Source of the DNA: Octopus vulgaris | Taxonomy: Eukaryota | NCBI GenBank assembly: GCA_951406725.2 | Contig: OX597818.1 | Coordinates: 1,984,001 to 2,048,000, forward strand | Direction: 5' to 3' | DNA: 64,000 nt | Shown here: piece after piece, positions 8,714-63,678 of the stretch | Numbering within the stretch: the stretch's first letter is position 1 | Layout of the letters: the number at the start of each line of letters is the position of its first letter | Notes under the pieces: model-generated | What the model saw: only the letters and a program-made list of their open reading frames with translations | Told to the model about the DNA's origin: nothing | Databases searched by the model: none | Translations under genes and position numbers: made by a program

Positions 8714-8731
8714 ATATATATATATATATAC

Positions 8732-9203
8732 GCGAGAAAGAAGCAACAAGAATGGTTAAGTTTTTAGTACAATCGTTTCATACAAAGACAGGCTTTATTA
8801 AAAGTTGCAAAAATTGCAGCATATAAACGTGTCCCGTACTCATCAGCTAAAATACATGTGAGTTCCCTAGACATCTTAGTGGTTGAGGCTATACTCATGA
8901 AGTAATGTAGATAATTAAGTAACACAAACAGATTTCCAAATTTCATTAAAGTTCTTTAAAGACTGTGCATCATCTTTAAAGAACTTTAATGAAATTTAGA
9001 AATCTGTTTGTGTTACTTAATTATCTACATTACTTCATGAGTATAGCCTCAACCACTAAGATGCCTAGGGAACTCACATGTATTTTAGCTGATGAGTACG
9101 GGACACGTTTATATGCTGCAATTTTTGCAACTTTTAATAAAGCCTGTCTTTGTATGAAACGATTGTACTAAAAACTTATCCATTCTTGTTGCTTCTTTCT
9201 CGC
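8732..9203. repeat. ~230-bp-arm inverted repeat (PLE pLTR-like), each arm with a hammerhead
   Basis: 8732-8962 is the reverse complement of 8973-9203 with few mismatches; near-identical 60-aa pseudo-ORFs on opposite strands in the track. Confidence 0.9.
9083..9173 (+). ncRNA. type-I hammerhead ribozyme with long stem II (mirror copy at 8762-8852, minus strand)
   Basis: TTTTAG-CTGATGA-GTACGGGACA..TGTCTTTGTAT-GAAA-CGATTG-TA-CTAAAA; GUA cleavage triplet. Confidence 0.75.
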
Positions 9204-9454
9204 TTATAATCACCCCACATTACTGTATGGTTAAAACCGTATAGTTTTTTGGTGCATCTAAGTTAGGTACCATATTCAAGTAAATTCATTAAAATTGACT
9301 TGAATCTTTATTGCTTTTTGTATATATATATATATATATATATATGATATGTATATATATATATATGATATGTATATATATATATGATATGTATATATAT
9401 ATATATGATATGTGTATATAAATATATATGATATGTATATATATATATATATAT

Positions 9455-25979: not shown

Positions 25980-27450
25980 GATAGAATGCTAAAGTGGAAC
26001 TACTGCCGATTGCATCGCCCGCCTAGTGGAGGGCTGTGAGCGTTTCACGACACTCGAGGGGTGCCAAGCGCCCTTCTTCAGTCTACGCCTAATCCAGGAT
26101 TGCAGCTCAATCAAAGAGCGTCTCTTGATAACAGATGAAACGCCTGACCAGTGGAACGTGACCTTTCCACAGAGAGCGAAAGAGTAAGCGCACCAGCTTG
26201 GTCAACCGGCAAACAAAGCAAGGGATGATGGTCAAACAGTAATAGATGACGAATGTTATGTACGCATTCGCTACCTCCACGTGACCTTTCAGGGACAGCT
26301 TCCTCTCGACCCATTTCTCGGTGAGATTGGCCCGTCACCACGTCCCAGTTTTTCTCCACCTGGAGGTCCGGACCTCGAACAATTTAATAGGACCGTCTGT
26401 CCAGCGCCCGACGATGCTGTTGGACGGCATGGGCTTGCCTCTTCAGGTGCCGAATTGCGAGCCCAGTGACTTTTCCGCGTTAATTTTGGCTCCTGCCACC
26501 GTTTCATATTCTTGTAGTGTGTCGCTAATCATGCTCGACACTATCGCGGTAACATCATCGGCGTAAGTAGACACGCTTCTTCCATGCCCTAGATCATGCA
26601 AGACACCCCTCAAAGACACCAACTTCCGCAGCAGTGGCTCAAGAGCCAGTACATACAGAAGGGAGGAGAGGGAGCACTCTTGACGGACCGAGCACAAGAT
26701 TCTGAATAGTTGTGAAAGGTAACCATTCACCGGAACAACCTAATAGATGCTGCTGTACAAAGCAGCGATCCAACCACGAAAGGCCGGACCGAAACCGGTT
26801 GCTCTGAGAACAGCTGCCAAATATGATGGTAGACCTTATCAAAGACTTTGGATTGAATTAATTTGATCAAAGCCCCACCCATGCCAACTTCATTACCCAC
26901 CCTCTCTATGATGTAACGCATGAGGTGAAGATTGTTGTGAATAGCCCTGGTTGGATGGCGCATATTTGCACCTTGCCAATCAGCTGGTTCACGACAAGCC
27001 CCAACCTCTTGGCTAACACCTTGGTCAAAATCTTTAACTCTGCATTGAGCAGAGTGATGGGCGTAAAATTTTCTATAACATACCCCTTGTTTGGGTCCTT
27101 TCTCAGCAGTTCCACCACTCCTCAACAAACAAAAGTGGAGATTCTCCCATTGTGTTGCCAGTTGAGGTCTGGCCTTTCGTGGTTGGATCGCTGCTTTGTA
27201 CAGCAGCATTTGTTAGGTTGTTCCGGTGAATGGTTACCTTTCACAACCATTCAGAATCTTGCGCTCGGTCCGTTAAGAGTACTCCCTCTCCTCCCTTCTG
27301 TATGTACTGACTCTTGAGCCACTGCTGCGGAAGTTGGAGTCTTTGAGGGGTGTCTTGCGTGATCTAGGGCGTGGAAGAAGCGTGTCTAATTACGCCGATG
27401 ATATTACCGCAATAGTGTCGAGCATGATTAGCGACACACTATAAGAATTG
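25980..27450 (-). mobile_element. degenerate L1/Tx1-clade LINE RT region with an internal inverted duplication
   Basis: PITLLNAELKILTKVLAKRL, IHNNLHLMRYII, SVRQECSLSSLLYVLALEPLLRKL, YADDVT. Confidence 0.75.
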
Positions 27451-29602: not shown

Positions 29603-32600
29603 TAAATTGATCAAAATAAAATAAAAACATGATGCGAAGGATTCAGCGGTACATATGTTTCGGGCCTTTATTAGACAGATTTATAACAATGCATAATGTA
29701 TGTCTGTGGCCTTCTTCAGCCGCGCACAACAGCTTCCACAAGGACATGTGTTACATCAAAATTCTTGGTTGGGGATGCAAATCTTCTCATTCACGTACGA
29801 CATAATGCGGCAGCAGCATAGAATTGAAGCGTCCATCTCTTTCTTCTCTCAATGTAGAATGAGGAAAATTGGATGTTGAGGTAATGTAAATAAATAAATA
29901 CATATATAGAGGTGAAGATGGAGGGGCGAGAGTTCGGGACGAGGGATAAAAATGTATAAAAAGTGTAAGTATAGAATAATATAAAAATGTAGAGGATAAA
30001 GATATAAAGAGTTGTAAGGGGATGTAAAGGGGGTATAAAGAAATATAAAGAAATATAAATAAATGTAAAGGCATAAGGTTATAAAGTAAAAATAGAAATA
30101 GAAATAAAAGAAAAAAAACCTGATAAAAACATGATAAAAGTGTAAAAGAATGTAAAGATAAGGGATGTATAGAGGTTACGGACCAAGCATGGTGGTCAGG
30201 AGATTAATAAAATTTAGTTGTAGAATTGTCAGTAAATCAACAGTTTCGTCTGGGGACCTAATGCGTTGTAAATCAGAGCTGATGAGCATTTAATCTGGTT
30301 CCTTGAATTAAACGGACTTCTAGTACATACATATCATCATGGATACATACACCCACATACACGCGTACATATGCGCCTCCAAGCCTATAAGCATACACAC
30401 GCACTCGCATGTAAACACGTACATAAACACACACGCACCCAACGCACGCGCGTACACACACATACATACAACAGAATATCCGCATGTATACACGGACATT
30501 ATACGCGTACACACTCACATGTATATACGCGCGCCCATCACTACATACACACACGTATATGCCCACGCCTCTAGGTCTAGGTATAAGATATTAAAGGATG
30601 TGTATGAGAACGTATGTAAAGAATCCCGTACTCATGTCTATACGTGCACGCACACACGGCTGTGTGTCCGTATGTGCGTGCACATATACACTCATATACA
30701 CACACAGAGACACACGCGCCCATGGGTATAGCTATAAGATATCGAAGTATGCATGTACATATATGCGCGCGCATATGTATGTATGCGTATACACACGTAC
30801 GCGGACGCTCGTATAGTCAAAAAGTGGATCCATAGGTAAGTAAATAAACATATATAGAGGTGTAAAGCGATAAGTTATGGGTAAGAATGAGGGTGAGGGT
30901 GAAGATTAGAAATAAAAAATACAGTATAAAATAAGAAATACAATGTAATAGTTAGAAATGAAATATAAGAATTATAAAAATTATAAGAGTTAAGGTAAGG
31001 GATGAAAATAAAAATGAGAATAAATGGAAGTAGAATAAAAGTAAAAATAAAATTAATAGAGCAGGATGCCAACTATGTTGTGTAGAACTCCTGAACATCT
31101 TGAAATTCAAAGACAAACACAATCTTATTAACAAAAGGTCAGAGTTCAAACCATCCTGTATACATAAACTTATTAATACTTTCAAATACTACAATGCTTA
31201 GGTCTTATACCAACTCCCCCATGCAATTTCCTCCCACCCGGTGCAACCTGTCGGCTCCAGCACATCCTACTTTCCTATATGTGCGTGTATATGTGTATGT
31301 GTGTGTGTGTGCGTATGTATGTGCACATACGTGTACGTATGTGTACATATATATATATATGTACATGTGCGTGTGTGTGTGTGTGTGGGTGTGTGTATGT
31401 GCATATACGGTTCCCTGCATTTTCCTCCTATATATACAAATTTTGTCTCCCATATATGACTTCTTTTCCCTAAATATTTCTTTTCCCTAAATATTTCTTC
31501 TCCTACACCCATATCCTCCCTATGTAGTCTCTTTAATTCCCTATATCTATACCCTTTCACATTTCTAACTCGGATGTTGAACGCACACCGCCAAACTCCA
31601 CTTCCCACCCTTCCAATTTTCAGTTCCCCCCGCCCGCCCCTACGTTTAACACACACCTCTAACTTTCAACCACCTTCATCTCATGTTAAACTTTACCAAA
31701 TTATATTTTTATCTTATTTTATTTTATTTTTATTTTTATTTTTACTTTTATTTTTACTTTTATCCTACTTCCATTTATTTTTATTTTTAATTTTATTTTT
31801 ACTTTTATTCTACTTCCATTTATTCTCATTTTTATTTTCATCCCTTACCTTAACTCTTATAATTTTTATAATTCTTATATTTCATTTCTAACTATTACAT
31901 TGTATTTCTTATTTTATACTGTATTTTTTATTTCTAATCTTCACCCTCACCCTCATTCTTACCCATAACTTATCGCTTTACACCTCTATATATGTTTATT
32001 TACTTACCTATGGATCCACTTTTTGACTATACGAGCGTCCGCGTACGTGTGTATACGCATACATACATATGCGCGCGCATATATGTACATGCATACTTCG
32101 ATATCTTATAGCTATACCCATGGGCGCGTGTGTCTCTGTGTGTGTATATGAGTGTATATGTGCACGCACATACGGACACACAGCCGTGTGTGCGTGCACG
32201 TATAGACATGAGTACGGGATTCTTTACATACGTTCTCATACACATCCTTTAATATCTTATACCTAGACCTAGAGGCGTGGGCATATACGTGTGTGTATGT
32301 AGTGATGGGCGCGCGTATATACATGTGAGTGTGTACGCGTATAATGTCCGTGTATACATGCGGATATTCTGTTGTATGTATGTGTGTGTACGCGCGTGCG
32401 TGTGGGTGCGTGTGTGTTTATGTACGTGTTTACATGCGAGTGCGTGTGTATGCTTATAGGCTTGGAGGCGCATATGTACGCGTGTATGTGGGTGTATGTA
32501 TCCATGATGATATGTATGTACTAGAAGTCCGTTTAATTCAAGGAACCAGATTAAATGCTCATCAGCTCTGATTTACAACGCATTAGGTCCCCAGACGAAA

Positions 32601-33237
32601 CTGTTGATTTACTGACAATTCTACAACTAAATTTTATTAATCTCCTGACCACCATGCTTGGTCCGTAACCTCTATACATCCCTTATCTTTACATTCTTTT
32701 ACACTTTTATCATGTTTTTATCAGGTTTTTTTTCTTTTATTTCTATTTCTATTTTTACTTTATAACCTTATGCCTTTACATTTATTTATATTTCTTTATA
32801 TTTCTTTATACCCCTTTACATCCCCTTACAACTCTTTATATCTTTATCCTCTACATTTTTATATTATTCTATACTTACACTTTTTATACATTTTTTATCC
32901 CTCGTCCCGAACTCTCGCCCCTCCATCTTCACCTCTATATATGTATTTATTTATTTACATTACCTCAACATCCAATTTTCCTCATTCTACATTGAGAGAA
33001 GAAAGAGATGGACGCTTCAATTCTATGCTGCTGCCGCATTATGTCGTACGTGAATGAGAAGATTTGCATCCCCAACCAAGAATTTTTGATGTAACACATG
33101 TCCTTGTGGAAGCTGTTGTGCGCGGCTGAAGAAGGCCACAGACATACATTATGCATTGTTATAAATCTGTCTAATAAAGGCCCGAAACATATGTACCGCT
33201 GAATCCTTCGCATCATGTTTTTATTTTATTTTGATCA

Positions 33238-33242
<5 letters not shown>
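29603..33242 (+). mobile_element. PLE 3' fragment with a 1.45-kb inverted duplication (arms 29603-31056 and 31787-33242)
   Basis: Arms are near-perfect reverse complements; spacer encodes the GIY-YIG tail GCQLCCVELLNI..NLINKRSEFKPSCIH; hammerhead near each outer end. Confidence 0.85.
33122..33199 (+). ncRNA. type-I hammerhead ribozyme (mirror copy 29646-29723, minus strand)
   Basis: GCGG-CTGAAGA-AGGCC..GGCCC-GAAA-CATATG-TA-CCGC; palindromic stem III. Confidence 0.7.
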
Positions 33243-37985: not shown

Positions 37986-38444
37986 ATATACATTCCCCCG
38001 GTGACATCTCTGTGTTTGGTCTCGCCCCACACAACGGACCTCCACAATCCGGGCTTCACCTGGAACAACGATTTATATTTAATTTACAGACTAATATCCC
38101 GCACGGACTTAACACAGCCCCCTCCTCTTAGTGTCTGCCTCTACACCTCCCGCAACAAGCAACTTTATTTCTTCTTTCTTCTCTTCTCTTTTTTTCATTT
38201 TCTTTCCTTACGTGCAATTACGTCATTTTTATTGTTTTATATTTTTTATTGTTTATAATTTTATTGTTTTTATAAATTATTGTTTTTATACACGAACACA
38301 TAAACACACATATTCACGTACCCACGAACACACACATACCTCCCACACACCACATACATACATGCACATATACGCACACATACTTCCACACACATATACA
38401 CACACCCACATACATGTGTACACACATACGCACACACCACCAAT

Positions 38445-38861
38445 TGTAACAGGATCTGGTATCGGTATCACTGAAAGGGTGTCGATCCGATCCCGTCACA
38501 TACAATTTAGTTAGATATAACAGACGAAGTCAGGTTATCGGTGAAAGACAGCAGTTTGTTTATTAATCGTGATGGTGTACGTATCTCTGAAGGGAAAACG
38601 ACAGCCGAATCTGTTGTACAGCTTCTTGTTCGTTGGTTGAAGTGGTTCGATGTCGTCCGCGGCTAAGTCGGTGTGGTTATCAGAGACTACCAAATGCACG
38701 TCTGTTCACGATGGCTGAAACGCCCAGAGAGAATGAATAAGTGAGTGTGCCTTAGGGGGTCAGTTTCCCGCACATGCGCATGGGGAAGACTTCCTGTGGC
38801 CACCCGGAAGTAGTCCCATTCTGCGCATGCGCGCTGAACCTTACACAGTAGCATCACTACA
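38445..38861 (-). repeat. Gypsy LTR (TG..CA, ~417 bp)
   Basis: TGTAGTGATG..CTGTTACA on the minus strand following the PPT. Confidence 0.9.
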
Positions 38862-38929
38862 TGGCTCCCCCTCGAGTGCGGAAGTACGAAAACAAGAAAT
38901 TTTGTAGTGATGCTGCAGAAAAACAGATG

Positions 38930-41785
38930 CGACCAAGTGTCCATATCCGGTGGGAGATGGGATGGTGGAGATTGCTTCCTGGAAACCATGGGTGGAAGAT
39001 TCGAGAAATATGCACGCAGTCTGGCGACATAGGTCGCCGGATCATGGGGCTGGGAAGTGTCTGGCACCAACATCGTACCAGGCAATGCCAGTGTGGTACC
39101 ATACAGCAGCTCTGCAGAAGAAAACCCCAGGTCTGCCTTGACAGCAGTCCGACAACTGAGAAGCACAATTGGCAGAAATTCAATCCAGGACTGTCGGTTT
39201 GAAGAGGCACGAAGAGCGGCCTTGAGCTGTCTATGGAACCGTTCAACTAATCCATTAGACGCTGGGTGATAGCTGGTAGTGTGGATATGATGCACACCTA
39301 AAATGCGCAACAATTCGCGAAATAGCGAAGCTTCAAACTGACGTCCACGATCAGTAGTCAATCGGGACGGGACTCCGAAACGGGAAATCCAGTTTGAAAC
39401 GAAAGCTCGCGCAACAGTCTCAGCAGAAATGTCTGCTATCGGAATGGCTTCTGGCCTGCGGGAGAAGTGATCGACACAAGTTAACAGATAAGAAAACCCG
39501 CGACTCACAGGCCATGGTCCAACCAGATCGATGTGGATATGGCGAAAACGGGCCTCCGTAGGGGGAAAATGTTCAAGCGGGGCACGAACGTGCCGTTGAA
39601 TCTTGGACCGTTGACACTTGGAGCAGGTGCGTGTCCAAGAAGTAATAGTGCGACGCATATTCGGCCAGAAAAACCGAGCAGTGATTAGTTTAAGGGTGGC
39701 AGCGATGCCAGGATGTGATAAGGAGTGCAGTGCTTCAAACACTGAGCGTTGATGATTCTCAGGCACGAGTGGCCTGGGAGAACCAGTGGAAGTATCACAA
39801 AGAATTGTGCCTTCGGCTGACGGAAGCGGAAGGTAGGAAAACTGGCAACAGGAGAACTTGGGAGAAGTTAAGTCTAACGACGCCAAAGGTGGCTGCTCCT
39901 GCGAGATGGCAGTTAAGTCGATAGCAGCAGGAGACGAAAGGGCGCAGACTGGAAGGCGAGAGAGAGCGTCAGCAGGAACGTTCTCTTTTCCAGGTATGTG
40001 TCGAATGTTACTAGTGAATTGAGAGATAAAATCCAGGTGCCGGAAAGCACGAGGTGGGAGTTTGTCCGTTTTTGAACACAGGGCAAACGTAAGGGGCTTG
40101 TGATCCGTGTAGATCACAAAATCTCGCCCTTCAAGTTGATGCTGGAAATGACGAACCGATAGATAGATCGCTAGGAGCTCACGATCAAAGGTGCTGTATC
40201 GTCGTTCAGCTGGTTGCAGTTGGCGGGAAAAGAAAGCCAGAGGTCGAATATGATCATCCACTGTGTGTTGTTATAACAGCGCCAATCGCAGTGTCCGATG
40301 CGTCTACAGTCAAAGAGAGAGAAGCACCAGGAACCGGATGTGCAAGCAAAGAAACAGAAGCCAGCTCCTTCTGAATGGACTCAAAGGCTGTCACTGCCTC
40401 AACAGAGAGGGTGACTTGACCGTCCTTTCTAGGAGTGTCCTTTAATAGCCTGGTGAGAGGTAGTAGCTTATCTGCACAACCGGGAATAAAACGTCTGTAG
40501 AAATTGATCATCCCTAGATAATGCCTGAGCTGGCGCAAGGAAGTGGGGGTGCGATGCGTTGAATGGCATCGACCTTTGACGACAGAGGGCTGATTCCACT
40601 CGAATCAATATGATGGCCTAGAAAATCTAGGGAAGAGCGTCCGAAAACACACTTGTCGGGATTTATACGTATACTATAAGCACAAAGACGCTGAAAAAGC
40701 TGAGAAAGGTGCTGGAGATGATTTTCACGTGTGTCGCTCGCAATGAGTATATCATCGACATAGGCAAACACAAAATCAAGACCGCGGACAACCTCATCAA
40801 TGAAACGCTGGAAAGTGCTAGTAGCATTCCGCAAACCGAAACTCATATACAAAAACTCAAAACACCCAAAAGGGGTAGTGATCGCAGTTTTCGGAACGTC
40901 GGCTGGGTTGACCGGTATTTGATGGTACGCGCGTATAAGGTCGACCTTCGAAAAAATGGTACAACCATGAAGATTTGCCGTAAAGTCCTGTAGATTTCTG
41001 ATTGGATATCTGTCGGCTATTGTCACGGCATTGAGGCGTCGATAGTCTCCAACCGGGCGAAAATCAGACTCGCCCTTTTGCGCCAAATGAAGGGGAGACG
41101 CCCATGGGCTGGTGGAGGGGCGTATAAGACCAAGTTGAAGCATGTGCTCAAACTCGGCCCTGGCCGTTTTTAGTCGGTCAGGCGCAAGGCGCCGTGGGCG
41201 CGAAAATACAGGCGGCTCAGTGGTGGTGATAAAATGGAGTGTCGAGTCGGTAGGCTTTTCCGGTTGAAAGGCAATGTCCACTAGCTCCGGAAATGAAGCC
41301 AAAAGAGAGTGAAAAGCGTCTCCAGAGGTGGCAACAAAGTATGTCGGGCTAAGGACCGCATTGGTGGAACTCCCAGTCGGCGTAGAGACAGACGTCGTGC
41401 TATCAAGAAGCCTCCGACGCCTGACATCCACCAATAGATTAAACTTATCCAAGAAATCAGCGCCGAGAATAGGATGCGGGATGTCAGCGATGACGAAAAC
41501 CCATTGAAAATCTCGACGAAGGTTGATGTCGAGGCGCAGCGAAATCTGACCGAAGGTGGTTATGGGAGACGAGTCAATGGCATGCAAGACAATTGAAGAG
41601 CGCTTGGGCTTGTCTGCAGCCAGACGAAGGGGCCAGATGCTGCAACAAGAGCCGGTGTCCACCATGAAGAATTTCTTCGACACAAAGAATGCACGATTTT
41701 GGGGAAACGAGAAGGAAGAAGGTGACGTGCTCACCTCCTCCGGATTTAGTTTTCCGAGGGCTGGAAAGTGCGCGGCTGGGTACAC
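38930..41785 (-). pseudogene. Gypsy pol (protease, RT, RNase H, integrase), frameshifted
   Basis: [73 protein letters not shown]. Confidence 0.92.
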
Positions 41786-42431
41786 CGTTCTGCCTTTTCG
41801 GCAGAGCCACTGCGACTACGACTGCGTGGTCGGCGCCCGATTTCACGGCACAGATCATCGATTCGCCGCGTGAGCGCATCGAGCCGCTCGGCTAATGAAT
41901 TTTGCGTCGGAGAAACTGTCGGAGGGGCTCTATACATGCGCACAGGCCTCGCGATGGAGATGGATTCGGAAATTCCAATATTTTATCGGCCATCGTGGCA
42001 ATCTGGTCTACTGACACAGACTCCAGTACCGTGGCCAACATTGTCTGCACGTGGGCAGGCAACCTGGAGAAGAAAATCCTCCGTAAGAGCGGCGCGTCCG
42101 CTGCGTTCCCGCTCAGCTCCCGTAGGTGGCGCAAGAACTGGGATGGAGTCCTGTATCCCAACAGTTCCTCGGCCATCAGCTCCTTAAAATTACTCTCCTC
42201 CGACCGCGTGTTGCGGCGGCGGATTTCGGCTTTCACGGACGCGTATGTCGCGTCCGGGTGGGGACTTATTATGAGATCCCTGATCGATGCGGCGAGTCGG
42301 GGATGTAAACTTGAATATAGCAGATGCAACTGCTGCTGTGGAGGAACGGCATGTGCGTCAAAATGCCACTCCACCTGGGCAAACCACAGACCCACATCCC
42401 CTGTGAAGGAAGGCAAACCTGATGCAGCCAT
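41746..42431 (-). pseudogene. Gypsy gag, frameshifted
   Basis: LPSFTGDVGLWFAQVE..LGYRTPSQFLRHLRELS..LPAHVQTML..MADKILE. Confidence 0.8.
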
Positions 42432-42803
42432 GTTTTTGTTCGGGACGACTCTGTCAAGGGGCCACTTGTTTCTCCCTATAAAGGACCTTTCCGTGTGCTT
42501 TCTCGCACACCAAAGGTTTTCACTATTGAAATAAATGGTCATTCGGAGACCGTTTCCGTAGACCGATTAAAGAAAGCATACTTTGAGACGTCTTCATCTT
42601 TTGATGACAACCTTGCCACACCCACCTATGCACCTTTAACAACACCTTCACCTGCACAAACACCTTCACCTGCACAGACACCTTTGCTTTCACCGGCTCC
42701 TACAACACCACCCTCGCCGTCAACGGGGAATACACCGTATATTACAAGATCGGGCAGAACAGTGCATTGGCCCAAGAAACTTTCAAGGACAATCTATATT
42801 TAA
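42427..42803 (+). pseudogene. Gypsy integrase C-terminal (GPY/F) segment in opposite orientation
   Basis: SHVFVRDDSVKGPLVSPYKGPFRVL..VSVDRLKKAY..TRSGRTV. Confidence 0.85.
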
Positions 42804-42937
42804 CTTTCTTTCAAATTTCTTGTTTTTTGTATGATATTATGTACCGAATCTTCTGGGGGATCGGCAAGCCATCTGTTTTTCTGCAGCACCACTACAAATT
42901 TTCTTGTTTTCGTACTTCCGCACTCGAGGGGGAGCCA

Positions 42938-43353
42938 TGTAGTGATGCTACTGTGTAAGGTTCAGCGCGCATGCGCAGAATGGGACTACTTCCGGGTGGC
43001 CACCGGAAGTCTTCTCCATGCGCATGTGCGGGAAACTGAGCCCCTAGGGCACACTCACTCATTCATCCTCTCTGGCCGTTTCAGCCATCGTGAACAGACG
43101 TGCATTTGGTAGTCTCTGATAACTACAACGACTCAGCAGCGAACGACATCGAACCACTTCAACCAACGAACAAGAAGCTGTACAACAGATTCGGCTGTCG
43201 TTTCCCTTCAGAGATACGTACACCATCACGATTAATAAACAAACTGCTGTCTTTCACCGATAACCTGACTTCGTCTGTTATATCTAACTAAATTGTATGT
43301 GACGGGATCGGATCGACACCCCTTCAGTGATACCGATTCCAGATACTGTTACA
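42938..43353 (+). repeat. Gypsy LTR (TG..CA, ~416 bp)
   Basis: Inverted, slightly diverged copy of 38445-38861. Confidence 0.9.
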
Positions 43354-43699
43354 CAGTAAGGCATAGTTATTCGCCACACACAAACTCTACGCATACACAC
43401 ACGAACACACACATACACACACACACACACTACAAACAAAACACACACAATACATATACATACACGCACACACACACATAATTCAATCTAGCAGTACTCT
43501 CACTGACCATGGGTAGACACAAGAGCTACTCCTAATTCCTTCTTCCTTGACCTTAAACAATACTAAGCCCTACAACACACATAGATTTACAGCCACAACC
43601 ACATACACACACACGCACACACACACACGTGTTATCATTGCACACATACACACATACACACACACGCACACGCAGACCTTCGCGCACGCACATATCCAC

Positions 43700-43953
43700 A
43701 CTTACACACACATACCTCCTCTTGCACTCTCCTGTCTTTGAAAGAACTTTTCTTCACCCATTTCCTTCCGGTCATTCAAAATGTGACCGCGTGTGTACCG
43801 TCTTCCCTTCTCTGGATCTTTCCTTTTCCTATATTTCTGACGAAGAGCTCCGCTCGAAAGGTAAAATCCTCCTGCTTCCCTTCCTTCCTGAGCGTCCAAT
43901 AATACTATATTTGTTCCACGTCCTCGCGTTGTTGCGTTTTCATGTTTGGATTA

Positions 43954-43958
<5 letters not shown>
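43700..43958 (+). mobile_element. PLE-derived repeat with a minimal hammerhead remnant (43833-43867)
   Basis: ATTT-CTGACGA-AGAGCTCCGCTC-GAAA-GGTA-AAAT; stem III C-to-G change likely disables it. Confidence 0.6.
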
Positions 43959-44008
<50 letters not shown>

Positions 44009-57155: not shown

Positions 57156-57240
<85 letters not shown>

Positions 57241-57407
57241 CATACATACATCCACGCATACACAGATATATACACATATATACAAACCAGTACAAACATC
57301 ACATACACAAAAGTGTACTGAAGTCTATACATAATATCTAATATACAAGAAAGATAACATAAAATAATACTTAAAACTACCACATGCATGCACACAAATA
57401 AACCTAC

Positions 57408-57438
<31 letters not shown>

Positions 57439-57448
<10 letters not shown>

Positions 57449-57905
57449 GAGGGCATTATACATACATGCCAAACGCTAAGAGGGACAATTAGTCATTTCT
57501 ACCAAAAATATTACTAATCCCACCGAATGCAATTTTTCAAAGTAAGACATTTAAAAAATATAGACCTGTATCACAGTGATTTCATACTTACGTACTCATC
57601 AGCAGGCCTGAATGTATTATAAATAAACAACGACCCTGCCCCGCTTAAGCCGATCAGCTAACTGATCAACATCAACGAAGCACATGGGTGAGTTTACATA
57701 TATTACATCCAGATAAATGGCAAACTTTTACGAATTGCATTTCGGGAGAGGAAAAGTTTTTTCGGAATAAAAATTTAGCAATTAAGGACAACTACTTAAT
57801 AAGGAAAACTTAACAAGAAATTGTCAGGTAGATAGCGTAAAAACCTCATAAGAGAAAAAATTTCGAAAATAATTATTTCTTATTGAACATATTAATTTAT
57901 ATATA
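57439..57905 (-). repeat. single inverted monomer of the hammerhead repeat
   Basis: Reverse complement of the array unit, lacking the internal TGGCATGTATGTATAATGCC duplication. Confidence 0.92.
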
Positions 57906-60900
57906 GGGTCGTTGTTTATTTATAATACATTCAGGCCTGCTGATGAGTACGTAAGTATGAAATCACTGTGATACAGGTCTATATTTTTTAAATGTCTTAC
58001 TTTGAAAAATTGCATTCGGTGGGATTAGTAATATTTTTGGTAGAAATGACTAATTGTCCCTCTTAGCGTTTGGCATGTATGTATAATGCCTTCTGGCATG
58101 TATGTATAATGCCCTCTATATATAAATTAATATGTTCAATAAGAAATAATTATTTTCGAAATTTTTTCTCTTATGAGGTTTTTACGCTATCTACCTGACA
58201 ATTTCTTGTTAAGTTTTCCTTATTAAGTAGTTGTCCTTAATTGCTAAATTTTTATTCCGAAAAAACTTTTCCTCTCCCGAAATGCAATTCGTAAAAGTTT
58301 GCCATTTATCCGGATGTAATATATGTAAACTCACCCATGTGCTTCGTTGATGTTGATCAGTTAGCTGATCGGCTTAAGCGGGGCAGGGTCGTTGTTTATT
58401 TATAATACATTCAGGCCTGCTGATGAGTACGTAAGTATGAAATCACTGTGATACAGGTCTATATTTTTTAAATGTCTTACTTTGAAAAATTGCATTCGGT
58501 GGGATTAGTAATATTTTTGGTAGAAATGACTAATTGTCCCTCTTAGCGTTTGGCATGTATGTATAATGCCTTCTGGCATGTATGTATAATGCCCTCTATA
58601 TATAAATTAATATGTTCAATAAGAAATAATTATTTTCGAAATTTTTTCTCTTATGAGGTTTTTACGCTATCTACCTGACAATTTCTTGTTAAGTTTTCCT
58701 TATTAAGTAGTTGTCCTTAATTGCTAAATTTTTATTCCGAAAAAACTTTTCCTCTCCCGAAATGCAATTCGTAAAAGTTTGCCATTTATCTGGATGTAAT
58801 ATATGTAAACTCACCCATGTGCTTCGTTGATGTTGAGCGGTTAGCTGATCGGCTTAAGCGGGGCAGGGTCGTTGTTTATTTATAATACATTCAGGCCTGC
58901 TGATGAGTACGTAAGTATGAAATCACTGTGATACAGGTCTATATTTTTTAAATGTCTTACTTTGAAAAATTGCATTCGGTGGGATTAGTAATATTTTTGG
59001 TAGAAATGACTAATTGTCCCTCTTAGCGTTTGGCATGTATGTATAATGCCTTCTGGCATGTATGTATAATGCCCTCTATATATAAATTAATATGTTCAAT
59101 AAGAAATAATTATTTTCGAAATTTTTTCTCTTATGAGGTTTTTACGCTATCTACCTGACAATTTCTTGTTAAGTTTTCCTTATTAAGTAGTTGTCCTTAA
59201 TTGCTAAATTTTTATTCCGAAAAAACTTTTCCTCTCCCGAAATGCAATTCGTAAAAGTTTGCCATTTATCTGGATGTAATATATGTAAACTCACCCATGT
59301 GCTTCGTTGATGTTGAGCGGTTAGCTGATCGGCTTAAGCGGGGCAGGGTCGTTGTTTATTTATAATACATTCAGGCCTGCTGATGAGTACGTAAGTATGA
59401 AATCACTGTGATACAGGTCTATATTTTTTAAATGTCTTACTTTGAAAAATTGCATTCGGTGGGATTAGTAATATTTTTGGTAGAAATGACTAATTGTCCC
59501 TCTTAGCGTTTGGCATGTATGTATAATGCCTTCTGGCATGTATGTATAATGCCCTCTATATATAAATTAATATGTTCAATAAGAAATAATTATTTTCGAA
59601 ATTTTTTCTCTTATGAGGTTTTTACGCTATCTACCTGACAATTTCTTGTTAAGTTTTCCTTATTAAGTAGTTGTCCTTAATTGCTAAATTTTTATTCCGA
59701 AAAAACTTTTCCTCTCCCGAAATGCAATTCGTAAAAGTTTGCCATTTATCCGGATGTAATATATGTAAACTCACCCATGTGCTTCGTTGATGTTGATCAG
59801 TTAGCTGATCGGCTTAAGCGGGGCAGGGTCGTTGTTTATTTATAATACATTCAGGCCTGCTGATGAGTACGTAAGTATGAAATCACTGTGATACAGGTCT
59901 ATATTTTTTAAATGTCTTACTTTGAAAAATTGCATTCGGTGGGATTAGTAATATTTTTGGTAGAAATGACTAATTGTCCCTCTTAGCGTTTGGCATGTAT
60001 GTATAATGCCTTCTGGCATGTATGTATAATGCCCTCTATATATAAATTAATATGTTCAATAAGAAATAATTATTTTCGAAATTTTTTCTCTTATGAGGTT
60101 TTTACGCTATCTACCTGACAATTTCTTGTTAAGTTTTCCTTATTAAGTAGTTGTCCTTAATTGCTAAATTTTTATTCCGAAAAAACTTTTCCTCTCCCGA
60201 AATGCAATTCGTAAAAGTTTGCCATTTATCTGGATGTAATATATGTAAACTCACCCATGTGCTTCGTTGATGTTGAGCGGTTAGCTGATCGGCTTAAGCG
60301 GGGCAGGGTCGTTGTTTATTTATAATACATTCAGGCCTGCTGATGAGTACGTAAGTATGAAATCACTGTGATACAGGTCTATATTTTTTAAATGTCTTAC
60401 TTTGAAAAATTGCATTCGGTGGGATTAGTAATATTTTTGGTAGAAATGACTAATTGTCCCTCTTAGCGTTTGGCATGTATGTATAATGCCTTCTGGCATG
60501 TATGTATAATGCCCTCTATATATAAATTAATATGTTCAATAAGAAATAATTATTTTCGAAATTTTTTCTCTTATGAGGTTTTTACGCTATCTACCTGACA
60601 ATTTCTTGTTAAGTTTTCCTTATTAAGTAGTTGTCCTTAATTGCTAAATTTTTATTCCGAAAAAACTTTTCCTCTCCCGAAATGCAATTCGTAAAAGTTT
60701 GCCATTTATCTGGATGTAATATATGTAAACTCACCCATGTGCTTCGTTGATGTTGAGCGGTTAGCTGATCGGCTTAAGCGGGGCAGGGTCGTTGTTTATT
60801 TATAATACATTCAGGCCTGCTGATGAGTACGTAAGTATGAAATCACTGTGATACAGGTCTATATTTTTTAAATGTCTTACTTTGAAAAATTGCATTCGGT

Positions 60901-61603
60901 GGGATTAGTAATATTTTTGGTAGAAATGACTAATTGTCCCTCTTAGCGTTTGGCATGTATGTATAATGCCTTCTGGCATGTATGTATAATGCCCTCTATA
61001 TATAAATTAATATGTTCAATAAGAAATAATTATTTTCGAAATTTTTTCTCTTATGAGGTTTTTACGCTATCTACCTGACAATTTCTTGTTAAGTTTTCCT
61101 TATTAAGTAGTTGTCCTTAATTGCTAAATTTTTATTCCGAAAAAACTTTTCCTCTCCCGAAATGCAATTCGTAAAAGTTTGCCATTTATCCGGATGTAAT
61201 ATATGTAAACTCACCCATGTGCTTCGTTGATGTTGAGCGGTTAGCTGATCGGCTTAAGCGGGGCAGGGTCGTTGTTTATTTATAATACATTCAGGCCTGC
61301 TGATGAGTACGTAAGTATGAAATCACTGTGATACAGGTCTATATTTTTTAAATGTCTTACTTTGAAAAATTGCATTCGGTGGGATTAGTAATATTTTTGG
61401 TAGAAATGACTAATTGTCCCTCTTAGCGTTTGGCATGTATGTATAATGCCTTCTGGCATGTATGTATAATGCCCTCTATATATAAATTAATATGTTCAAT
61501 AAGAAATAATTATTTTCGAAATTTTTTCTCTTATGAGGTTTTTACGCTATCTACCTGACAATTTCTTGTTAAGTTTTCCATATTAAGTAGTTGTCCTTAA
61601 TTG

Positions 61604-61606
<3 letters not shown>
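57906..61606 (+). repeat. 480-bp tandem array (~7.7 units), each with a type-I hammerhead ribozyme; retrozyme/pLTR-like
   Basis: Unit starts at 57906, 58386, 58866, 59346, 59826, 60306, 60786, 61266; full units differ at only three positions. Confidence 0.97.
57933..57980 (+). ncRNA. type-I hammerhead ribozyme (first of 8 on +, repeated every 480 bp; a ninth on the minus strand at ~57562-57609)
   Basis: AGGCCTG-CTGATGA-GTAC-GTAA-GTAT-GAAA-TCACTGTGA-TA-CAGGTCT: 7-bp stem I, GNRA-capped stem II, near-palindromic stem III, AUA triplet. Confidence 0.85.
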
Positions 61607-61654
<48 letters not shown>

Positions 61655-62939
61655 TCTACATATATACAAATCCAATAGTGACCTCAATATGTTTAGTACA
61701 GTGACTCATACTTTGTGCATAACATATACTAAAAAACAAAAGTAAATACATATCAATATACATAAATATAAAGATATATATACAAACAAGTATCAGTATA
61801 TAAAAAAATGTACAAATATGTACACACAAATAAACACTTATATTAAAATATATAATTATATAAACACATTCATATACAAATACATATATTATACACTTAT
61901 ACATACATATACAAAAAATGATATACCCATAACCCATTACGATGTTGTACTCCTAAATATTATAAATTAAAAAAGCTCATAATAACTATTTGCATCTATT
62001 TCAAAGGGTTTTTTGTACTAAAGGGTATTTTGTACTAAAAATAAAATATTTCCACTTTGCAAGGTTCGAGTCGAGTACTCCCTTGCACGCTCCGTTGACT
62101 CGAACTTTGCTTTTATTGTGGCGAATTTACCGCCTTTGGTTAGATACTTGATATCTTTCATAGTCGCACCAAGGCACATTTCGATGGTGCTTTCCTCCAG
62201 GTGTTCAAATCTTTTTTTTCTCTACATGGTATACTTTATAGACAATAGTCTTTTCTTTAATTTTATTTTTATTTCGTTTGGTGGTGTTATCCTAGATTCA
62301 CCGTCTTTGTCGGTGATCAATCCGAAATAAGTTTGTATTTCTTCCATTTTAATTTTAATGAGTTCACGCCCGCCGACGGCTACAGCGAAATTCATTTTTG
62401 GACTTTCTTCTATCGAAGGCATTTTAACAAAAGTGCTTCCGTATAAATGGTGAAAATATTGTCAATTTCCCCAAACAGTGACACAATTCAATTTTTAAAC
62501 AATAAGCAAAGCTCCTTCTCCCTAAGGGGGAGGGTTACGGTTAGAAGCGGCTGTTCGAGAAAACAGACATTACATACAGCCAAACTTCATATAGATACTT
62601 AATGCTAGCTAATTAGCAGATAATCTAATGTAAAAGCTGTGGTAAAGGGTATGTGCACAGCTCCATCTGGACTATTCCATTTCTGCGCATTAATTTTACT
62701 TTTAATTTATTCCCATTCATGTGAAACCACTTATTCAAGTTCAAATCATTGATGCAATTTTATACCAATTGCTATTTTTACTTTTGTTATGTTACGATTA
62801 TATTATACTTTAGTTTGATTTTAATTATTACTTACTACATATAATTCAATTGTTATTATTATCTCTAATTTTTATTGTTAAAGTGAAAGTATCTGACATA
62901 AAATAGAGAAATGTTTTTGTTTCACTTATAACACATAAT

Positions 62940-63150
62940 ACTGAAATAGTGGAGAAGATATGATATTGCTATGGGCTCGCCCTAGGCAAGAAGTTGAACA
63001 TTCTTTTTGCCCATGAAACTACATGGACCCTAAGTAAGGCATATGTAAAATTTGAATGAAATTGGTTGTGTAGTTCTCAAGTTTTAGGGATACACACAGA
63101 CAGACAGACAAACAGGCAGACACACATTCTCAGTTTTATATATAAAGAGA
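62940..63150 (-). mobile_element. Helitron-like 5' portion
   Basis: Minus strand A|TCTCTTTATATATAAAACTGAG..(TGTC)n resembles the 5' end at 16008; 3' end not identified. Confidence 0.55.
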
Positions 63151-63379
63151 TGTATTTGTATATGAATGTGTTTATATATTTATATATTTTGATATAAGTG
63201 TTTATTTGTGTGTACATATTTGTACATTTTTTATATACTGGTACTTGTTTGTAAATATATCTTTATATTTATGTATATTGATATGTATTTACTTTTGTTT
63301 TATAGTATATGTTATGCACAAAGTATGAGTCACTGTACTAAACATATTGAGGTCACTATTGGATTTGTGCATATGTGGA

Positions 63380-63446
<67 letters not shown>

Positions 63447-63678
63447 GTAGGTTTATTTGTGTGCATGCATGTGGTAGTTTTAAGTATTATTTTATGTTAT
63501 CTTTCTTGTATATTAGATATTATGTATAGACTTCAGTACACTTTTGTTTATGTGATGTTCGTACTTGTTTGTATGTATGTAGGTGTATATATGTGTATAT
63601 ATCTGTGTATGTATGTATGTATGTATGTATATATGTGTGTGTGTGTGTGTGCGTGGATATATATGTTTTTGCATGTAG
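63151..63678 (-). repeat. inverted paralog of the flanks of the hammerhead array (empty site)
   Basis: Reverse complement of 57084-57420 joined through (TA)n to 61640-61885. Confidence 0.9.

What the first reader, a model, noticed from the sequence alone, without database searches (positions are those of the whole stretch)
38441..43357. Gypsy element with two inverted, outward-facing 3' LTRs and no 5' LTR or PBS
Seen: both LTRs are preceded by the PPT and 3' UTR and point outward, giving TGTAACAG...CTGTTACA termini like TIRs. The minus-strand pol lacks the integrase C-terminus after DTWSH, and exactly that missing segment (SHVFVRDD..) appears on the plus strand abutting the gag ATG. The breakpoints share a CAT(CT)GTTTTT-like microhomology. 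The flanks are CAAT and CAGT (3 of 4 match), inside the same CA-rich sequence. Known: Gypsy LTRs are direct repeats, while Ginger DNA transposons use Gypsy-like integrases with TGT..ACA TIRs and 4-bp TSDs. Inference: an aberrant template-switch or recombination product possibly integrated as one unit through two U5 ends, a structural intermediate between an LTR element and a TIR element. LTR mismatches argue against a trivial misassembly.
Basis: partly seen in the sequence, partly recalled or inferred. Interest (0 to 1): 0.7.

Follow-up and report, generated by a model that had tools for sequence, protein, structure and literature searches.

The report
Two half-retrotransposons fused head-to-head, once
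This is a single dead copy of an ordinary Gypsy jumping gene in which the tail ends of two related copies are joined back-to-back, likely because two half-made DNA copies primed each other during reverse transcription and the product was then likely inserted properly at one end only.

Summary
The architecture is confirmed: 485-bp inverted arms (3'UTR part, PPT, LTR; 96% alike), gag-pol on the minus strand ending at an integrase His codon, and the integrase tail on the plus strand starting at that same codon. Intact relatives in the genome are ordinary direct-LTR Gypsy elements with a tRNA-Trp PBS and a 4-bp TSD; both internal junctions occur once in the genome. Three corrections. (1) The arms come from two source lineages, not one. 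(2) 'CAAT' is probably not a decayed TSD: it is part of a 7-nt stub matching the start of the family's PBS region (tRNA end). (3) Paralogues of the host repeat show about 20-25 bp lost at the site, not duplicated. The layout equals that of L1 twin priming, with a second tRNA-primed minus strand as primer; this is my best reading (0.55), against rearrangement in the chromosome (0.27). It is not a Ginger element or a TIR family: one copy, integrase split. Reads gave no test of the junctions. The scan noted a similar head-to-head chimera in another genome (e1-7529357, unchecked). A rare, well-dissected accident; modest interest.

The parts
38438..38444 (-). 7-nt stub: the 2-nt spacer plus first 5 nt of the family's PBS; on the + strand it reads as the last 5 nt of a mature tRNA-Trp followed by the spacer
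   Evidence: identical to the 7 nt after the 5' LTR of intact copies; only LTR with both PPT and this stub among 26 PPT and 30 PBS exact hits; 7-mer occurs once in 13,087 positions of paralogous host tracts; tRNA with CCA anticodon and matching 3' end
38445..38861 (-). Left LTR (417 bp), U5 end facing outward; haplotype shared with L012, L066, L071, L079, L080
38862..38873 (-). Polypurine tract of left arm
38874..38929 (-). Last 56 nt of the 3'UTR, left arm
38927..38929 (.). Junction J1: 3'UTR joined to the integrase His codon; 3-nt perfect microhomology inside a 9-of-11 imperfect match
   Evidence: unique in genome with up to 2 mismatches
38927..42431 (-). gag-pol segment from gag ATG to integrase His codon (gag DUF7041, RT, RNase H, H2C2, rve); pol in three ORF pieces
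42429..42435 (.). Junction J2: antisense gag start joined to sense integrase tail; 7-nt microhomology between leader end and His codon region, inside a longer imperfect inverted match
   Evidence: unique in genome with up to 2 mismatches
42429..42803 (+). Integrase C-terminal coding part (contains a GPF motif read by eye as GPY/F; no Pfam hit)
42804..42925 (+). 3'UTR; the inverted repeat begins at 42870
42926..42937 (+). Polypurine tract of right arm
42938..43353 (+). Right LTR (416 bp), ends exactly at CA; AATAAA at 43234; haplotype shared with L002, L005, L078
37991..38290 (+). Left part of the multicopy host repeat in which the element sits (continues as a CA-rich tract to the element)
43354..43960 (+). 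Right part of the same host repeat, same orientation

Best explanation
This single copy joins the 3' ends of two sister Gypsy lineages head-to-head around one gag-pol segment, likely formed during reverse transcription in a particle holding two different RNAs and likely inserted by integrase at the right end only. Inferred steps: both RNAs were primed by tRNA-Trp and made the first strand jump. Strand A copied LTR, 3'UTR and integrase tail and stopped at the His codon. Strand B stopped early in the 3'UTR, and its 3' end paired (9 of 11 nt) with RNA at that His codon, the first place not yet copied by A, and went on to the gag ATG. The 3' ends of A and B are complementary there (7 nt perfect), so they primed each other into double-stranded DNA with two U5 ends and no 5' LTR. 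With no PBS on either strand's 3' end, the second jump could not occur and tRNA-derived bases stayed on the ends. The right end was cut at CA and joined; the left end kept 7 nt and was joined by host repair with loss of about 20-25 bp of target. The copy cannot move itself.
For: Shown: both junctions use the same His codon, so the internal region is present exactly once with a 3-nt overlap; two independent breaks would fall within 3 nt with p about 0.0016. This is the twin-priming layout (two cDNAs on one RNA, annealed at short complementarity; PMC2912911, passages). Arms are two haplotypes: 8 of 15 substitutions are non-CpG polymorphisms shared with 3 or more other copies, against 0-1 in each of 10 true 5'/3' pairs; AU test rejects them as sisters, p=0.026; four linked sites split the 10 nearest copies 5 left-type, 3 right-type, 2 mixed. 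The 7-nt stub matches the PBS start and tRNA-Trp end; 1 hit in 13,087 host positions. Both flanks belong to one host repeat; the last ~25 nt of the left flank lie 28 nt before the right anchor in 12 of 16 paralogues, against 5 nt in the window, so both ends sit at one site. All four pieces have similar private divergence, 0.6-1.4%. Precedents: co-packaged different RNAs give chimeric inserts (PMC1950507, whole text); one end inserted by integrase and the other by host enzymes with host deletions (PMC5041404, passages); Ty1 inserts at breaks carry cDNA-only extra bases (PMC11372161, passages).
Against: No read support: 0 reads laid on J2 in three raw runs and no spanning contig piece in a fourth; the tool calls it no test; best run holds 0.49 of the words. 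By the criteria of PMC1950507, no TSD plus unlike outer LTRs point to post-insertion recombination. The source lineage of gag-pol could not be assigned: integrase core is nearest L095 (right type, 11 differences) but others follow at 12-15, and gag is nearest copies with distant LTRs. The pairing sites are good but not unique: J2 ranks 4-7 of about 190 windows at 15 nt, 22-36 of about 115 at 25 nt, 1-16 of about 85 at 35 nt; J1 ranks 7-10 of about 260 at 12 nt and 32-40 of about 157 at 20 nt (6 copies). The right end shares 4 nt with the host paralogues, so it could be a microhomology join rather than an integrase join. A separate ~830-bp gap in the host repeat lies about 27 nt left of the element and may mean a larger repair event. 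The empty site is read from paralogues 80-93% alike, not from an allele. 2 of 27 complete-ended copies have a one-mismatch TSD.
Confidence: 0.55

Rival explanations
1. Chromosomal rearrangement: an ordinary element, or two neighbouring or nested elements of sister lineages in opposite orientation, were fused later by microhomology-driven deletion and inversion or by replication template switching, which removed the 5' LTRs, leaders and a little host DNA.
For: Two haplotypes and no TSD are the classic marks of recombination between independent insertions (PMC1950507); internal deletions are common among copies; family copies do nest in related elements (L151, L158); a second host deletion lies close by. 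A reciprocal inversion would also put both junctions at one codon.
Against: Needs both insertions within about 25 bp of host; an inversion model moves the coincidence to the gag ATG; the LTR followed by PBS start and preceded by PPT needs a further LTR-LTR exchange; 0 of 40 fetched family stretches hold any inverted piece.
Confidence: 0.27
2. One reading: the same chimeric cDNA was integrated normally through both U5 ends, and CAAT/CAGT is a 4-bp TSD with one later mutation.
For: Family TSD is 4 bp; 2 of 27 complete-ended copies show one mismatch; both LTR ends are intact at CA.
Against: The 7-nt PBS match would be chance (1 in 13,087 host positions), whereas a 3-of-4 match arises by chance about 5% of the time (arithmetic, uniform bases); about 20 nt of host would still be missing against 12 of 16 paralogues.
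Confidence: 0.08
3. Assembly artefact or chimeric long read joining pieces of two family copies.
For: Junctions are unique in the assembly and no read was found across J2.
Against: Joins at 3-7 nt matches are not what overlap or k-mer assemblers make (general knowledge); a fold-back read would give identical arms, not two family haplotypes; the flanks are collinear halves of one host repeat; the assembly is chromosome-scale, 227 contigs for 2.8 Gb.
Confidence: 0.07
4. A member of a mobile TIR-bearing family (Ginger-like derivative of Gypsy) moved as a unit by integrase in trans.
For: Termini fit TGTNR and are inverted, as in Ginger (PMC2836005).
Against: One copy only; only one opposite pair among 26 exact PPT-LTR hits; no TSD; integrase split; RT retained.
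Confidence: 0.03

Closest known systems
Complex LTR retrotransposon insertions made by template switching (Sabot and Schulman 2007, PMC1950507; whole main text read, supplements not seen)
   Same: Chimeric single insert from two co-packaged, slightly different RNAs.
   Different: Theirs are head-to-tail with three direct LTRs, identical outer LTRs and a TSD; this one is head-to-head with two unlike inverted LTRs, no 5' LTR and no TSD.
L1 twin priming, 5'-inverted L1 copies (described in PMC2912911; passages read)
   Same: Inverted 5' segment and forward 3' segment that meet at one point of the RNA; microhomology at both junctions; two cDNAs annealed at short complementarity.
   Different: An LTR element; the second primer is another LTR arm, not cut target DNA; no poly(A) tail, no long TSD; right end is a full U5.
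One-ended (aberrant) retroviral integration in ASLV and HIV-1 (PMC5041404; passages read)
   Same: One normal end, one odd end, host deletion instead of a short duplication.
   Different: There the cause is a mutant end, drug or weak integrase; here a retained PBS/tRNA stub is inferred.
Ginger1 DNA transposons and the proposed route to their TIRs (Bao et al. 2010, PMC2836005; passages and Discussion read)
   Same: TGTNR inverted termini; two opposite LTRs from two different elements around an integrase region is exactly the precursor they propose.
   Different: Arms 485 bp not 40-270; no CCGG/CCGT TSD; integrase split; RT present; single copy.
Ordinary Ty3/Gypsy LTR retrotransposon family of this genome
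   Same: All pieces are 92-97% identical to intact copies; domain order gag-RT-RH-INT; PPT; LTR TG...CA.
   Different: Intact copies have direct LTRs, a 12-nt tRNA-Trp PBS, a leader of about 380 bp and an exact 4-bp TSD (25 of 28).

Membership tests
Ty3/Gypsy LTR retrotransposon (source family) | Domain order gag, RT, RNase H, integrase | tested here: met
   (protease not hit by Pfam)
Ty3/Gypsy LTR retrotransposon (source family) | Two direct LTRs, PBS after the 5' LTR, PPT before the 3' LTR | tested here: not met
   Met by intact copies but not by this copy: inverted LTRs, two PPTs, 7-nt PBS stub
Ty3/Gypsy LTR retrotransposon (source family) | 4-bp target-site duplication | tested here: not met
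   25 of 28 two-LTR copies exact, 2 one mismatch, 1 truncated end (two pairs are segmental duplicates); here 3 of 4 only if the PBS stub is counted as host; host bases missing
Ginger1 DNA transposon | TIRs of 40-270 bp starting TGTNR | tested here: not met
   Termini fit the pattern but arms are 485 bp of LTR, PPT and 3'UTR
Ginger1 DNA transposon | CCGG or CCGT 4-bp TSD | tested here: not met
Ginger1 DNA transposon | One transposase ORF with zinc finger, DDE, GPY/F and OTU/Ulp1, no RT | tested here: not met
   Integrase split across strands, RT and RNase H present, no OTU/Ulp1 hit
Ginger1 DNA transposon | Several copies with the same ends | tested here: not met
   J1 and J2 each once in the genome; right host junction once among 40 scored of 980 candidates
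Template-switch complex (Sabot and Schulman) | Internal third LTR, near-identical outer LTRs, TSD | tested here: not met
Twin-primed (5'-inverted) insertion | Inverted and forward segments meet at one point of the template, microhomology at both junctions | tested here: met
Twin-primed (5'-inverted) insertion | Target-DNA primers, poly(A) tail, L1-type TSD | tested here: not met
   Right end is U5-CA, about 120 nt past AATAAA; no tail; no TSD
One-ended integration | One precise CA end, one aberrant end, host deletion or long duplication | tested here: inconclusive
   Pattern present, but the empty site is inferred from paralogues and the right end shares 4 nt with host
One-ended integration | Direct comparison with the true empty allele | not testable with these tools
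   No second haplotype or related genome is held; read laying gave no test

The most novel reading that the evidence does not exclude
LTR retrotransposons have their own twin priming: two tRNA-primed minus strands in one particle prime each other and yield, in one step, an insertable DNA with inverted LTRs and two integrase-ready U5 ends. This is a direct route to the inverted-LTR precursor proposed for Ginger1 DNA transposons, and such molecules recur at low rate across genomes.
Probability: 0.3. Interest if true: 0.7.

Novelty: new variant of a known kind. Interest (0 to 1): 0.4.

Why it matters
If the reading is right, the copy records an error path of LTR reverse transcription (mutual priming of two minus strands) whose footprint is specific and searchable: inverted U5 ends, internal region present once, two haplotypes, tRNA stub. 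It also shows that the inverted-LTR precursor imagined for Ginger1 can arise without two lucky neighbouring insertions. It is still one dead copy with a split integrase, with no sign of function or spread.

Tried and rejected
Family-level TIR structure (leader replaced by an inverted 3' end in relatives): rejected, intact copies have ordinary 5' LTR, PBS and leader. Read test of J2 with a 53-base stretch: nothing laid from three raw runs of 1.9 Gb each, six half-matching contig pieces from X1; no test; the host-side junctions and J1 were not read-tested. Assigning gag-pol to the left or right lineage: unresolved, copies are mosaic and the left arm's nearest relatives are solo LTRs. ARAGORN found no tRNA in 4 of 4 loci; Rfam found one in L165 of 2 tried; a first tRNA pattern found nothing. 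Rfam on the whole window: 0 hits. Pfam at E up to 1 for the integrase tail and a host ORF: only sub-threshold noise. Paper searches for a described head-to-head or inverted-LTR product of LTR reverse transcription (listings only) found none; the library lacks most subscription journals, so this is not proof of absence. PMC8264403 (passages) lists inversions as a class of defective HIV proviruses without mechanism. Scan look-ups near this place and by sequence returned nothing. Rows dropped: window self-loci; L006 and L025 (truncated LTRs) before the tree; 13 of 29 host paralogues without both anchors.
Full report
Observation. The window is G000:C5:1984001-2048000 of a 2.8-Gb, 227-contig animal assembly (earlier scan notes call it an octopus, not checked). 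The described structure is there. Arms 38445-38929 and 42870-43353 are inverted, 485 columns, 96.3% identical. Each has the end of the 3'UTR, the PPT and a full LTR with its U5 end outward. Between them, the minus strand carries gag, RT, RNase H, zinc finger and integrase core from the ATG at 42431 to a His codon at 38927; the plus strand carries the integrase tail from the same His codon at 42429 through the 3'UTR. Pol lies in three ORF pieces.

The source family is ordinary. Fetched copies show direct 416-bp LTRs, a leader of about 380 bp, contiguous integrase and no inverted piece in 40 of 40 stretches. Of 28 two-LTR copies, 25 have an exact 4-bp TSD, 2 one mismatch, 1 a truncated end (two pairs are segmental duplicates). 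After the 5' LTR they read a 2-nt spacer and a PBS of up to 12 nt that matches the 3' end of a genomic tRNA with CCA anticodon, tRNA-Trp. J1 and J2 each occur once in the genome with up to 2 mismatches; similarity searches scored 40 of 248, 40 of 517 and 40 of 980 candidates and only the window spans J2, J1 or the right host junction. So this is one copy, not a family.

The junctions are coupled. J2 has a 7-nt perfect match between the end of the leader and the His-codon region, within a longer imperfect inverted match that ranks 1-16 of about 85 windows at 35 nt but 22-36 of about 115 at 25 nt. J1 has 3 nt perfect within 9 of 11, ranking 7-10 of about 260 at 12 nt and 32-40 of about 157 at 20 nt. 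A family copy holds 587 inverted and 1070 direct 7-mer pairs, so microhomology alone does not single out the His codon; two independent breaks would fall within 3 nt with p about 0.0016. The internal region is present exactly once.

The arms have two sources. Among 42 other LTRs (44 found, 2 truncated ones dropped), 8 of the 15 substitutions between the arms are non-CpG variants seen in 3 or more other copies on both sides, against 0-1 in each of 10 true 5'/3' pairs. Nine of those 10 pairs are sisters in the tree and the tenth groups with its duplicate; the arms are not sisters, and an AU test rejects holding them together (p=0.026; hypothesis fixed beforehand, test run after seeing the tree). 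The left arm is 6 differences from solo LTR L071 and 15 from the right arm. Four linked sites split the 10 nearest copies into 5 left-type, 3 right-type and 2 mixed; three other 'shared' sites carry right-arm letters found only in more distant copies. Private letters are 0.74% (gag-pol), 1.36% (tail), 0.62% (left arm) and 1.03% (right arm) against 20 stretches, in the range of true LTR pairs (4-13 differences per pair), so the pieces are of similar age; no clock was applied. Which lineage gave gag-pol is unresolved.

The ends. The right LTR stops exactly at CA. The left LTR runs on for 7 nt (38438-38444) identical to the spacer and PBS start; it is the only LTR with both a PPT and this stub among 26 exact PPT-LTR and 30 exact LTR-PBS hits. 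The 7-mer occurs once in 13,087 positions of paralogous host tracts, and 0 times in 9,834 positions of an overlapping set. Both flanks are parts of one multicopy host repeat in the same orientation. In 16 of 29 paralogues with both anchors the window lacks 120-962 bp overall, but tiling shows that most of this is one gap about 27 nt left of the element; the last ~25 nt of the left flank sit 28 nt before the right anchor in 12 of 16 paralogues, against 5 nt in the window (8 if a TSD is assumed). So about 20-25 bp of target are missing and both ends attach at one site. This rests on paralogues, not an allele. The right end also shares 4 nt with the paralogous host sequence.

Mechanism. Read on the plus strand, the element starts like a tRNA-primed minus-strand cDNA (tRNA end, spacer, U5, R, U3, PPT, 3'UTR), jumps to the His codon, runs antisense to the gag ATG, then turns into the sense copy of a second minus strand that had stopped at that His codon. 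That is the layout of L1 twin priming (PMC2912911, passages) with a second tRNA-primed strand as primer. I infer two co-packaged RNAs of sister lineages, a stalled strand A, a strand B that re-primed at the first RNA not yet copied by A, and mutual priming through the 7-nt complementary ends. Lack of a PBS at either 3' end would block the second jump and leave tRNA-derived bases, as cDNA-only bases are seen in Ty1 inserts at breaks (PMC11372161, passages). One good end joined by integrase and one joined by host repair with a deletion is documented for ASLV and HIV-1 (PMC5041404, passages). All of these steps are inferred; only the layout, haplotypes, stub and host spacing are shown. Confidence 0.55.

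Rivals. Rearrangement in the chromosome (0.27) fits two haplotypes and no TSD, the marks that PMC1950507 (whole text) gives for recombination between independent insertions, and an inversion also couples junctions; but it needs two insertions within about 25 bp or nesting plus exact deletions, and an extra LTR exchange for the PPT-LTR-PBS stub. Two-ended integration with a decayed TSD (0.08) needs the stub to be chance. Artefact (0.07) is not excluded by reads: no public run holds more than 0.49 of the words and the J2 test laid no raw read (flagged as no test). A mobile TIR family (0.03) fails on copy number.

Comparison and novelty. It works like a template-switch chimera and a twin-primed insert but belongs to neither class as defined. 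It matches the precursor that Bao et al. proposed for Ginger1 TIRs, two opposite LTRs from two elements around an integrase region (PMC2836005 Discussion), yet fails every Ginger1 membership feature tested and has a split integrase. Six paper searches (listings only) showed no description of this head-to-head product; supplements were not read and most subscription journals are not covered. The scan noted one similar chimera with two outward U5 ends in another genome (e1-7529357; unchecked), which led me to PMC1950507. The mutual-priming idea was in my notes; the twin-priming comparison followed scan notes on other elements of this genome.

Verdict. Observation confirmed, interpretation partly supported. 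New variant of a known kind; one dead copy; interest 0.4.

Noticed in passing
window 57448-61615: 7.7 tandem copies of a 480-bp unit, 99% alike, plus an inverted partial copy (57448-57906), between TA runs; looks like the ~485-nt retrozyme arrays noted elsewhere in this genome; Rfam gave no hit.
   Followed up: partly
window 29603-31056 and 31787-33242: 1457-bp inverted repeat, 99.7% identical, ending at a TA run, no coding sign in a quick ORF look.
   Followed up: partly
window 8727-9208: 482-bp near-perfect palindrome (97%) beside a TA run.
   Followed up: no
window 26508-26798 / 27158-27448; 57222-57448 / 63406-63634; 61605-61885 / 63150-63429: Further inverted repeat pairs of 230-290 bp, 93-97% alike.
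   Followed up: no
window 43837-43859: Hammerhead-core-like motif (motif recalled) in the host repeat, which with its CA-rich tract suggests a Penelope-like 3' region; not confirmed by Rfam.
   Followed up: partly
L099 (G000:C22:13026250-13026680): A lone LTR followed by 12 nt of the PBS region, then the last 4 LTR letters and an intact 4-bp TSD: a minimal copy whose whole interior is gone.
   Followed up: no
L151, L158, L108, L159 (G000:C14:37.98-38.09 Mb): Family copies repeated with identical flanks (segmental duplication); two sit inside the pol of a 77-79% related Gypsy.
   Followed up: no
L153 (G000:C24:18968800-18969360): LTR fragment, then PPT region and a full LTR in tandem with no coding part.
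   Followed up: no
L165 1372-1570: A tRNA-Trp gene lies 10 bp upstream of a 5S rRNA gene on the same strand; a cluster of tRNA-Trp-like ends lies at G000:C6:58.38-58.46 Mb.
   Followed up: no
window 43128-43142 (right LTR positions 191-205): Four differences from the left arm within 15 bp, three shared only with distant copies: possible short conversion tract.
   Followed up: partly
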